From contig OZ024748.1 of NCBI GenBank assembly GCA_964016885.1, positions 4,340,001 through 4,404,000 of the forward strand: a stretch of DNA of 64,000 nucleotides, read 5' to 3'. The stretch is from Eledone cirrhosa (taxonomy: Eukaryota). Shown here one piece after another: positions 25,714 through 25,913 of the stretch; the stretch's first letter is position 1; every line of letters begins with the position of its first letter. The position numbers were made by a program, and so were the translations under genes. Under the pieces are notes generated by a model. It worked only from the letters and a program-made list of their open reading frames with translations. It did not search any database and was not told the DNA's origin.

Positions 25714-25913
25714 AGAAAAACCACAGACCCTCCATCTCAACTCACCTTTTGAAAAGCAGAAGAACTGCGAAACCGGTAAAGGAACCAAATAAATATATAT
25801 ATTTTAAAAAAAAATAAGACTTCAGTTGCATTTTCGATTTCATCCCTTTTTCTTTATACTTCCACTCGTGTAGGACACCTCGGTTATTTTTCATTTTGTA
25901 AAAAAAACCTCAC

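What the first reader, a model, noticed from the sequence alone, without database searches (positions are those of the whole stretch)
25745..25782. Natural U3-A8 hammerhead variant (core UUGAAAA) conserved across three diverged copies
Seen: cctt-TTGAAAA-gcag/ctgc-GAAA-ccgg-TA-aagg with perfect stems. The same TTGAAAA core occurs at about 5926-5932(-) and 48704-48710(+). Stem II covaries (gcag/ctgc versus gcat/atgc) and so does stem I (ctt/aag versus ttt/aaa), while the downstream bodies differ. Known: C3 and G8 form a tertiary Watson-Crick pair in the HHR core, so U3-A8 is the compensatory swap. Inference: this is a functional variant lineage that standard CUGANGA searches would miss.
Basis: partly seen in the sequence, partly recalled or inferred. 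Interest (0 to 1): 0.85.

Follow-up and report, generated by a model that had tools for sequence, protein, structure and literature searches.

The report
Penelope retroelement hammerhead, known U3-A8 core
The motif is real and sits in the terminal repeat of a young, very abundant Penelope-like jumping gene, where it likely acts as a slow self-cutting RNA; its U3-A8 core is already published, and only a sister family with one further core change and a pile-up of copy ends at the predicted cut site go beyond that.

Summary
The 38-nt motif is as described, but the three copies are not equivalent. 25745 is intact. 5933(-) is an older copy of the same family with both stems damaged. 48704 belongs to a sister family that reads GCAA instead of GAAA. 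The motif lies in the pseudo-LTR of a young endonuclease-bearing Penelope-like element; 15,080 of 15,195 genome matches carry U3-A8, so decay from CUGANGA is refuted. U3-A8 is not new: it was reported in nature in 2011 and in Penelope elements in 2014, with the same UUGAAAA heptamer, and this scan has met it in other genomes. It also swaps repeatedly with C3-G8 across related elements. Three things go further. (1) The sister family has fixed A13C (4,911 vs at most 31). (2) (TA)n-joined 5' ends pile up at the predicted cut site (70 vs 6-12 at five control sites), an indirect hint of cutting in vivo; reverse-transcriptase stalling is the rival. (3) In passing: ORF1 and the RT-endonuclease ORF overlap at a conserved T-TTT-TTA site, likely a programmed -1 frameshift. 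No RNA data, no cleavage test. Verdict: new member of a known kind, interest 0.33.

The parts
25711..25919 (+). Solo, 5'-truncated pseudo-LTR fragment of Penelope-like family A (long 3' end), between two (TA)n tracts
   Evidence: 207 of 209 columns identical to the 5' pLTR of intact element L129; flanks seen; start and end fall in the family's commonest bins
25745..25782 (+). Minimal type I hammerhead motif: stem I 4 bp, stem II 4 bp, palindromic helix III
   Evidence: sequence; descriptor hit
25749..25755 (+). Core strand U3-U4-G5-A6-A7-A8-A9 (U3-A8 swap)
   Evidence: family state in 15,080 of 15,195 matches
25772..25777 (+). Self-complementary ACCGGT; would form helix III between two motifs
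   Evidence: sequence; computed duplex -8.3 kcal/mol, while a hairpin would need a 2-nt loop; dimer formation inferred
25778..25779 (+). Predicted cleavage site, after the GUA triplet
   Evidence: hammerhead numbering; genome-wide excess of (TA)n-joined 5' ends here
5774..5967 (-). Older family-A pLTR fragment; core 5933-5927, stems I and II damaged
   Evidence: about 80% identical to 25711-25919
48671..48849 (+). pLTR fragment of sister family B; core 48704-48710, GCAA box 48724-48727 (C13), palindrome hit by one C-to-T change
   Evidence: 175 of 180 columns identical to family-B element L350; GCAA in 4,911 matches
48264..48543 (.). Head-to-head pair of family-B fragments that both begin within a few bases of the predicted cut site and lack the core

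Best explanation
The motif is a minimal type I hammerhead with a U3-A8 core in the pseudo-LTR of a young Penelope-like retroelement, and it likely cuts the element's RNA slowly after GUA, probably only as a dimer or with help from the element's protein. SHOWN: the motif lies about 200 nt before ORF1 and again after the RT-endonuclease ORF, 4.7 kb apart in partial tandems; U3-A8 is the family state; the motif is the best-conserved stretch between two sister families whose silent sites are saturated. INFERRED: a read-through transcript carries two motifs whose ACCGGU palindromes pair to build helix III; cutting would release a unit-length RNA starting AAGG. INFERRED: most new copies come from uncut (or re-joined) RNA, since they run 70-79 or 140-149 nt past the cut site and usually keep the whole motif, while a small share would come from cut RNA and start at the cut site. 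The 209-bp window copy is a solo truncated insertion with no same-strand partner of its family in the window and is probably passive.
For: Host element: RT (PF00078) and C-terminal GIY-YIG (PF01541) upstream of the motif. 20 of 30 pLTR-ORF junction loci have the motif 157-167 nt upstream on the same strand; 7 of 10 longer fetches have both motifs, 3 of 10 both ORFs unbroken. Young: all 144 scored RT matches (of 23,169 candidates) are 97-100% identical. Conservation: 26 of 30 columns identical between families A and B, reached by 5 of 604 windows, while four-fold sites match 28 of 83 against 0.30 expected. Pair 3-8 covaries in related elements and switches at least 4 times on an RT tree of 27 rows (6-7 by parsimony). 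Cut-site footprint: 70 distinct (TA)n-joined starts (74 matches) against 6, 11, 7, 12 and 12 at five control sites; 47 remain after dropping the class with 2-nt TA microhomology. Literature: U3-A8 ribozymes were active in vitro (PMC3088659 section 8, citing a paper I could not open); Penelope minimal hammerheads cut weakly as dimers (PMC4209133); a lizard Penelope hammerhead cuts only with the element's protein, and uncut RNA is the main insertion substrate (PMC11167929).
Against: No cleavage assay and no RNA evidence. The fold is no more stable than shuffles. Stem I is weak: -1.7 kcal/mol here, 0.0 in the ACTT subfamily, +2.5 in family B; the ACTT form with a 3-bp stem is about half of the read depth and 25 of 126 sampled copies against 60 for CCTT. 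Family B amplified to 4,911 matches with A13C, whereas all 24 related motifs keep A13, so a textbook core was not needed to spread. The 5'-end excess could be reverse transcriptase stalling at the foot of the folded motif; control patterns differ in width and anchor; of 30 loci inspected by eye about 9 join unrelated or (TA)n flank, about 14 are inversion junctions and about 7 are internal deletions or duplications; a differently built pair of patterns gave only 75 against 33. In the lizard element hammerhead mutants did not affect insertion in vitro and no RNA-seq ends were found at the cut site.
Confidence: 0.72

Rival explanations
1. The motif descends from a hammerhead but is now kept as a fold or protein-binding or promoter element of the pLTR and rarely or never cuts; the pile-up of 5' ends marks reverse transcriptase stalling at the structure.
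For: A13C fixed in family B; weak stem I; most copies keep an uncut junction; conservation between A and B extends about 60 nt upstream of the core (0.63-0.73 per 30 columns); hammerhead activity was dispensable in vitro in PMC11167929.
Against: The 3-8 pair stays paired through repeated swaps, which is what the catalytic fold needs; the highest junction class (27 of 70) fits a start at the cut site or one base after it, with 0 in the same class 8 nt upstream; family B shows a weaker excess in the same place (19 vs 6 and 1).
Confidence: 0.25
2. The family consensus is CUGANGA and these copies decayed to UUGAAAA independently.
For: The genome does hold 9,666 canonical-core matches, and 2 family-like copies read C3-G8.
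Against: 15,080 of 15,195 family matches are U3-A8; single changes number 71 (C3-A8) and 42 (U3-G8). The first 100 canonical matches listed are mostly 466-469-bp tandem units, and one such unit showed no similarity to the element beyond microsatellite. The 2 C3-G8 copies compare with 0.2 expected by chance (P about 0.02), both in old diverged copies.
Confidence: 0.01
3. The resemblance is a chance pattern in AT-rich repeat DNA.
For: No Rfam hammerhead hit; unremarkable folding energy.
Against: Position in the pLTR where Penelope hammerheads are known to lie; the same architecture recurs beside related RT genes from other organisms, 24 distinct motifs against 0.3 per shuffle.
Confidence: 0.02

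Closest known systems
Minimal hammerheads of metazoan Penelope-like elements, U3-A8 variant of Schistosoma mansoni Cercyon elements (Cervera & De la Pena 2014, PMC4209133)
   Same: Type I topology, short helix I, palindromic helix III, location in the pLTR, solo copies and opposite-strand pairs, U3-A8 core; the UUGAAAA heptamer appears in row S. mansoni(4) of its supplement.
   Different: Helix II is 4 bp (there 7-8); no extra base between A9 and G10.1; 4-nt palindromic insert CCGG; about ten times more matches; the sister family carries C13, which none of the rows I saw in the supplement's alignment shows (part 2 of 3 read; the boxes listed are GAAA or AGAAA).
Natural U3-A8 hammerheads (Perreault et al. 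2011, PMC3088659)
   Same: Same compensatory swap, stated to occur in several natural examples and to be active in vitro.
   Different: Section 8 names A6C, A6a, U13a, U15.1-A16.1 and U10.1-U11.1 variants but no A13C; figure 5 and figures S6-S7 were not visible.
Poseidon element PAc of Anolis carolinensis (Frangieh et al. 2024, PMC11167929)
   Same: pLTR hammerhead; two reverse-transcription start sites that give two genomic 3' ends, matching the two ends seen here; AT-rich targets.
   Different: PAc has C3-G8, one ORF, and a cut site inside the ORF; here the cut site lies about 170 nt before ORF1, there are two ORFs and a CxxxxCxxC linker.
Neptune/Nematis-type EN+ Penelope-like elements (as defined in Craig et al. 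2021, PMC8557442)
   Same: C-terminal GIY-YIG, CX2-5CxxC linker, (TA)n targets, tandem and inverted pLTRs, optional tail.
   Different: Two ORFs overlapping in the -1 frame rather than the 'single ORF' of that paper's abstract; its Fig. 1 legend allows an ORF1 set off by a frameshift, but I could not see for which clade. The tail here is about 68 nt, not 30-40.
Animal non-LTR retrozymes (bioRxiv 10.64898/2026.07.22.740005)
   Same: Type I hammerhead with palindromic helix III; such tandem units exist in this genome.
   Different: This motif is not in short head-to-tail tandem units; it belongs to an autonomous element.

Membership tests
Minimal type I hammerhead of PLEs | Core strand C3/U3-U4-G5-A6-N7-G8/A8-A9 with a paired 3-8 position | tested here: met
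   U3-A8 in 15,080 of 15,195 matches
Minimal type I hammerhead of PLEs | G12-A13-A14-A15.1 box and U16.1-H17 | tested here: met
   Family A and the 25745 copy: GAAA...TA; non-A at position 13 in only 54 matches
Minimal type I hammerhead of PLEs (family B, window 48704) | A13 | tested here: not met
   C13 in 4,911 matches against at most 31 with A13; hammerhead-like, not filed as a canonical member
Minimal type I hammerhead of PLEs | Helices I and II, G10.1-C11.1 pair, palindromic helix III | tested here: met
   4 bp, 4 bp, G-C, ACCGGT; one compensatory pair in each helix between families A and B
Minimal type I hammerhead of PLEs | Extra nucleotide between A9 and 10.1 (usual, not universal) | tested here: not met
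   Absent; also absent in published rows for Marsupenaeus and Saccoglossus(2) and in 3 of 24 related motifs
Minimal type I hammerhead of PLEs | Self-cleavage after N-U-H | not testable with these tools
   Only an indirect excess of 5' ends at the site
Rfam hammerhead families | Covariance-model match | tested here: not met
   None among 8 hits at E<=10 over 25700-25920
EN+ Penelope-like element | RT followed by C-terminal GIY-YIG endonuclease | tested here: met
EN+ Penelope-like element | Partial tandems forming pLTRs, inverted 5'-truncated copies, optional tail | tested here: met
   27 of 42 sampled copies have an inverted partner within 1.5 kb; two 3' ends in 18 and 19 of 42
Neptune clade | CX2-5CxxC linker before the endonuclease | tested here: met
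   C-x4-C-x2-C in ORF2; shared with Nematis
Neptune clade | Phylogenetic placement with named Neptune elements | not tested
   No named reference sequences were on hand; the tree has unnamed rows only
Non-LTR retrozyme | Short non-coding head-to-tail tandem units each with a hammerhead | tested here: not met
   Unit is about 4.7 kb and coding; the window copy is solo

The most novel reading that the evidence does not exclude
Both families cut in vivo, the sister family with a doubly changed core (U3-A8 plus C13), and the excess of copies that begin at the cut site is a genomic record of Penelope hammerhead cleavage in living cells. That would widen the tolerated hammerhead core and give a sequence-only readout for whether these ribozymes act in vivo.
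Probability: 0.3. Interest if true: 0.62.

Novelty: new member of a known kind. Interest (0 to 1): 0.33.

Why it matters
The U3-A8 core itself is ordinary. What could matter: the role of Penelope hammerheads in vivo is described as unclear (PMC8557442), and a 2024 study found no RNA ends at the cut site. A young family with about 15,000 matches lets one read cut-site use from copy boundaries, and here they are enriched about seven-fold. The sister family is a natural A13C experiment. The likely -1 frameshift would set the ORF1 to RT-endonuclease ratio in a large group of these elements and explains why annotation sees two broken frames.

Tried and rejected
Rfam over the whole window: the 150 rows shown of 460 were miRNA and snoRNA models, nearly all on microsatellites, none a hammerhead. 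A MALAT1 model hit over 25701-25783 (E 2.2, 19 bits against a cut-off of 70) is treated as chance. DNA search of the own genome with the 209-bp copy returned 0 candidates and is uninformative. Intron idea (GT at the cut triplet or at GTGAGA, AG after the pyrimidine tract): 0 spliced-junction matches, no GT..AG joint in two contig runs of unknown kind, and the AG is not kept in family B; unsupported, not excluded. Expression: no RNA holder listed. Viral contigs: no relative. First tree discarded because several rows paired a motif with a neighbouring element's RT; redone, leaving out two rows whose motif lay only upstream. First descriptor script timed out. A gag-like nature of ORF1: atlas hits all below 0.9, model all-helical, no PDB match at E<=0.001; rejected as unsupported. 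No stimulatory structure found after the slippery site (z -0.20 and -0.32). Literature blanks: 'hammerhead'+'A13C' 0 papers; six-term A13 search 0; 'C3U'+'G8A' 0; Penelope+ORF1+ribosomal frameshift+GIY-YIG 0. These cover open-licence papers only. Not held, so not read: Nelson & Uhlenbeck 2008, Przybilski & Hammann 2007, Gladyshev & Arkhipova 2007, Arkhipova 2017, Lunse 2016; any of them may already cover A13 variants or the frameshift. File 1 of the PMC4209133 supplement could not be searched.

Full report
1. Observation. The motif is at 25745-25782(+) exactly as written. The other two copies differ from the description. The one with core 5933-5927(-) has stem II gcat/ctgt and two stem-I pairs, and is about 80% identical to the first over its whole body. 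The one at 48704(+) has the compensatory stems but GCAA for GAAA and CTGG for CCGG. A descriptor found 2 hits in the window, this one and a C3-G8 motif at 59533. Rfam gave no hammerhead and the fold is not beyond shuffles.

2. What it is. The window comes from a 3.0-Gb genome rich in (TA)n; I did not establish the host. The family pattern matches 15,195 times against 0 reversed, plus 43 with a 4-nt loop; matches are not insertions, since many come as inverted pairs. Of the 15,195, 73 have C3 (2 of them G8) and 42 are U3-G8, leaving 15,080 U3-A8. Upstream of the motif lies an RT plus C-terminal GIY-YIG frame. The end of the repeat joins directly to an ORF start in 79 exact matches; 20 of 30 such loci carry the motif 157-167 nt upstream. 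Of 10 longer fetches, 7 hold two same-strand motifs about 4.7-5.0 kb apart and 3 have both ORFs unbroken (L129). The family is young. The window copy is a solo 209-bp piece, 207 of 209 columns identical to L129's pLTR. In 42 sampled copies, 24 start 30-49 nt before U3, and 18 and 19 end 70-79 and 140-149 nt past the cut site; contigs from two public runs show the same two ends. These are the tandem, inverted and tail features of EN+ Penelope-like elements (PMC8557442, passages).

3. Sister family. The 48704 copy belongs to family B, whose RT-endonuclease frame is 53-56% identical to family A in its longest matches. Its box is GCAA in 4,911 matches against 31 with GAAA under a slightly narrower pattern, a few of them family-A copies. 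In family A position 13 is non-A in 54 matches. Four-fold sites between the families are saturated (28 of 83, 0.30 expected), yet the motif is 26 of 30 identical, a level reached by 5 of 604 windows.

4. Other organisms. In 93 loci around related RT genes (76 from metagenomes, 17 from MAGs where they are probably host contamination), a descriptor with positions 3, 8 and 13 free found 24 distinct motifs: 16 C-G, 7 U-A, 1 U-G, all A13; shuffles gave 0.3 per replicate. Five of the 7 U-A motifs come from one assembly, so the Fisher P of 2e-5 overstates independence. On a 27-row RT tree the pair changes at least 4 times.

5. Does it cut? No RNA run was listed. As an indirect test I counted copies joined to TATATA at their 5' end. 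At the cut site: 70 distinct loci, split 23, 27, 14 by three, two or one A before GG, and 6 others. At control sites 5' of it: 6, 11, 7; 3' of it: 12, 12. Without the class that has TA microhomology, 47 remain. Against: the patterns differ in width and anchor; many junctions are inversions or internal rearrangements; another pattern pair gave 75 against 33; an earlier sample of 183 copies had only 2 starting exactly there; stalling of reverse transcriptase at the fold predicts a similar signal. Family B gives 19 against 6 and 1, one of the 19 being an internal insertion. The affected copies are well under 1% of the family.

6. Mechanism. Shown: location, family state, conservation, two 3' ends. 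Inferred: dimer formation through ACCGGU (-8.3 kcal/mol), slow or protein-assisted cutting after GUA, insertion mostly from uncut RNA. Confidence 0.72; the kept-but-not-cutting rival 0.25.

7. Known work. PMC4209133: main text parts 1-2 of 4, supplement file 2 searched and part 2 of 3 read; it reports U3-A8 in Schistosoma Penelope elements and weak dimer cleavage. PMC3088659: passages and section 8. PMC11167929: parts 1-2 of 4. PMC8557442, PMC3846280 and PMC6765202: passages (75; 112, 115). bioRxiv 2026.07.22.740005: part 1 of 5. I found no A13C report, but five key papers were not held. Earlier scan notes reached the same verdict for U3-A8 motifs in other genomes; look-ups for the frameshift and for this genome returned nothing.

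8. In passing: ORF1 (400 aa) overlaps the 775-codon RT-endonuclease frame by 88 nt in the -1 relation, with T-TTT-TTA in phase and no Met before the first conserved RT motif. The six-T run is kept in all 21 of 30 family-A loci where the site matched, in 4 family-B copies and in a metagenome relative; families in another assembly have G-GGT-TTT at the same place. A profile of ORF1 finds 769 relatives; none of the 154 held exceeds 553 aa, and 67 of 78 full-length ones have Phe-Leu in the last 40 residues against 2, 3 and 9 in the three windows before. That T-TTT-TTA is a known slippery heptamer is recalled, not from a call. A programmed -1 frameshift is likely; a frameshifted ORF1 is already mentioned for some Penelope types, so its novelty is uncertain.

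9. Verdict. Real, inherited, probably functional, and a new member of a published kind. Interest 0.33, mostly from the A13C family, the cut-site footprint and the frameshift.

Noticed in passing
L129:2759-3958 and 3871-6195 (G000:C1:399391500-399401000); slippery site near L129:3892-3898: Two ORFs overlap in the -1 frame at T-TTT-TTA, kept in family B and matched by Phe-Leu near the end of 67 of 78 full-length ORF1 relatives; likely a programmed -1 frameshift into RT-endonuclease. ORF1 is all-helical with no Pfam or PDB match.
   Followed up: yes
window 48704-48737(+); family B, e.g. L350: Sister Penelope-like family with U3-A8 and a fixed A13C change, 4,911 matches.
   Followed up: yes
window 59533-59578(+) and 54642-54801(-): A second, unrelated hammerhead-like motif with canonical CTGATGA core, long helix II and a (TA)n helix III, in a 160-bp repeat present twice (92.5% identical); the second copy has GAAG in place of GAAA.
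   Followed up: partly
L197-L226, e.g. G000:C1:5738326-5752444: Tandem arrays of 466-469-bp units with canonical CTGATGA hammerheads and an ACTAGT palindrome (retrozyme-like); 9,666 matches to the canonical pattern against 9 reversed.
   Followed up: partly
family A pLTR, L129 about 2521: A strong hot spot of 5' ends 30-49 nt before the core (24 of 42 copies; summed contig depth rises about eight-fold there in one run); may mark a transcription start or a self-mobilised short element.
   Followed up: partly
L309-L329: One metagenome assembly holds tandem Penelope-like families with C-G, U-A and U-G cores side by side, many with ORF1 of about 370-400 codons and G-GGT-TTT at the overlap.
   Followed up: partly
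L121, L122: Two old family-A-like copies with C3-G8; L122 differs further (CTGATGA, different stem I) and may be a relic of a canonical relative.
   Followed up: partly
window 25992-26177 and 26249-26381: Palindromic short repeats next to the finding, with further copies at 14110-14269, 18681-19083 and 49017-49247; MITE-like, not examined.
   Followed up: no
window 39408-43558: 77-bp tandem repeat, 53.9 copies, 99% identical.
   Followed up: no
window 25701-25783(+): Weak match to the Rfam MALAT1 model (E 2.2, far below cut-off); taken as chance.
   Followed up: no
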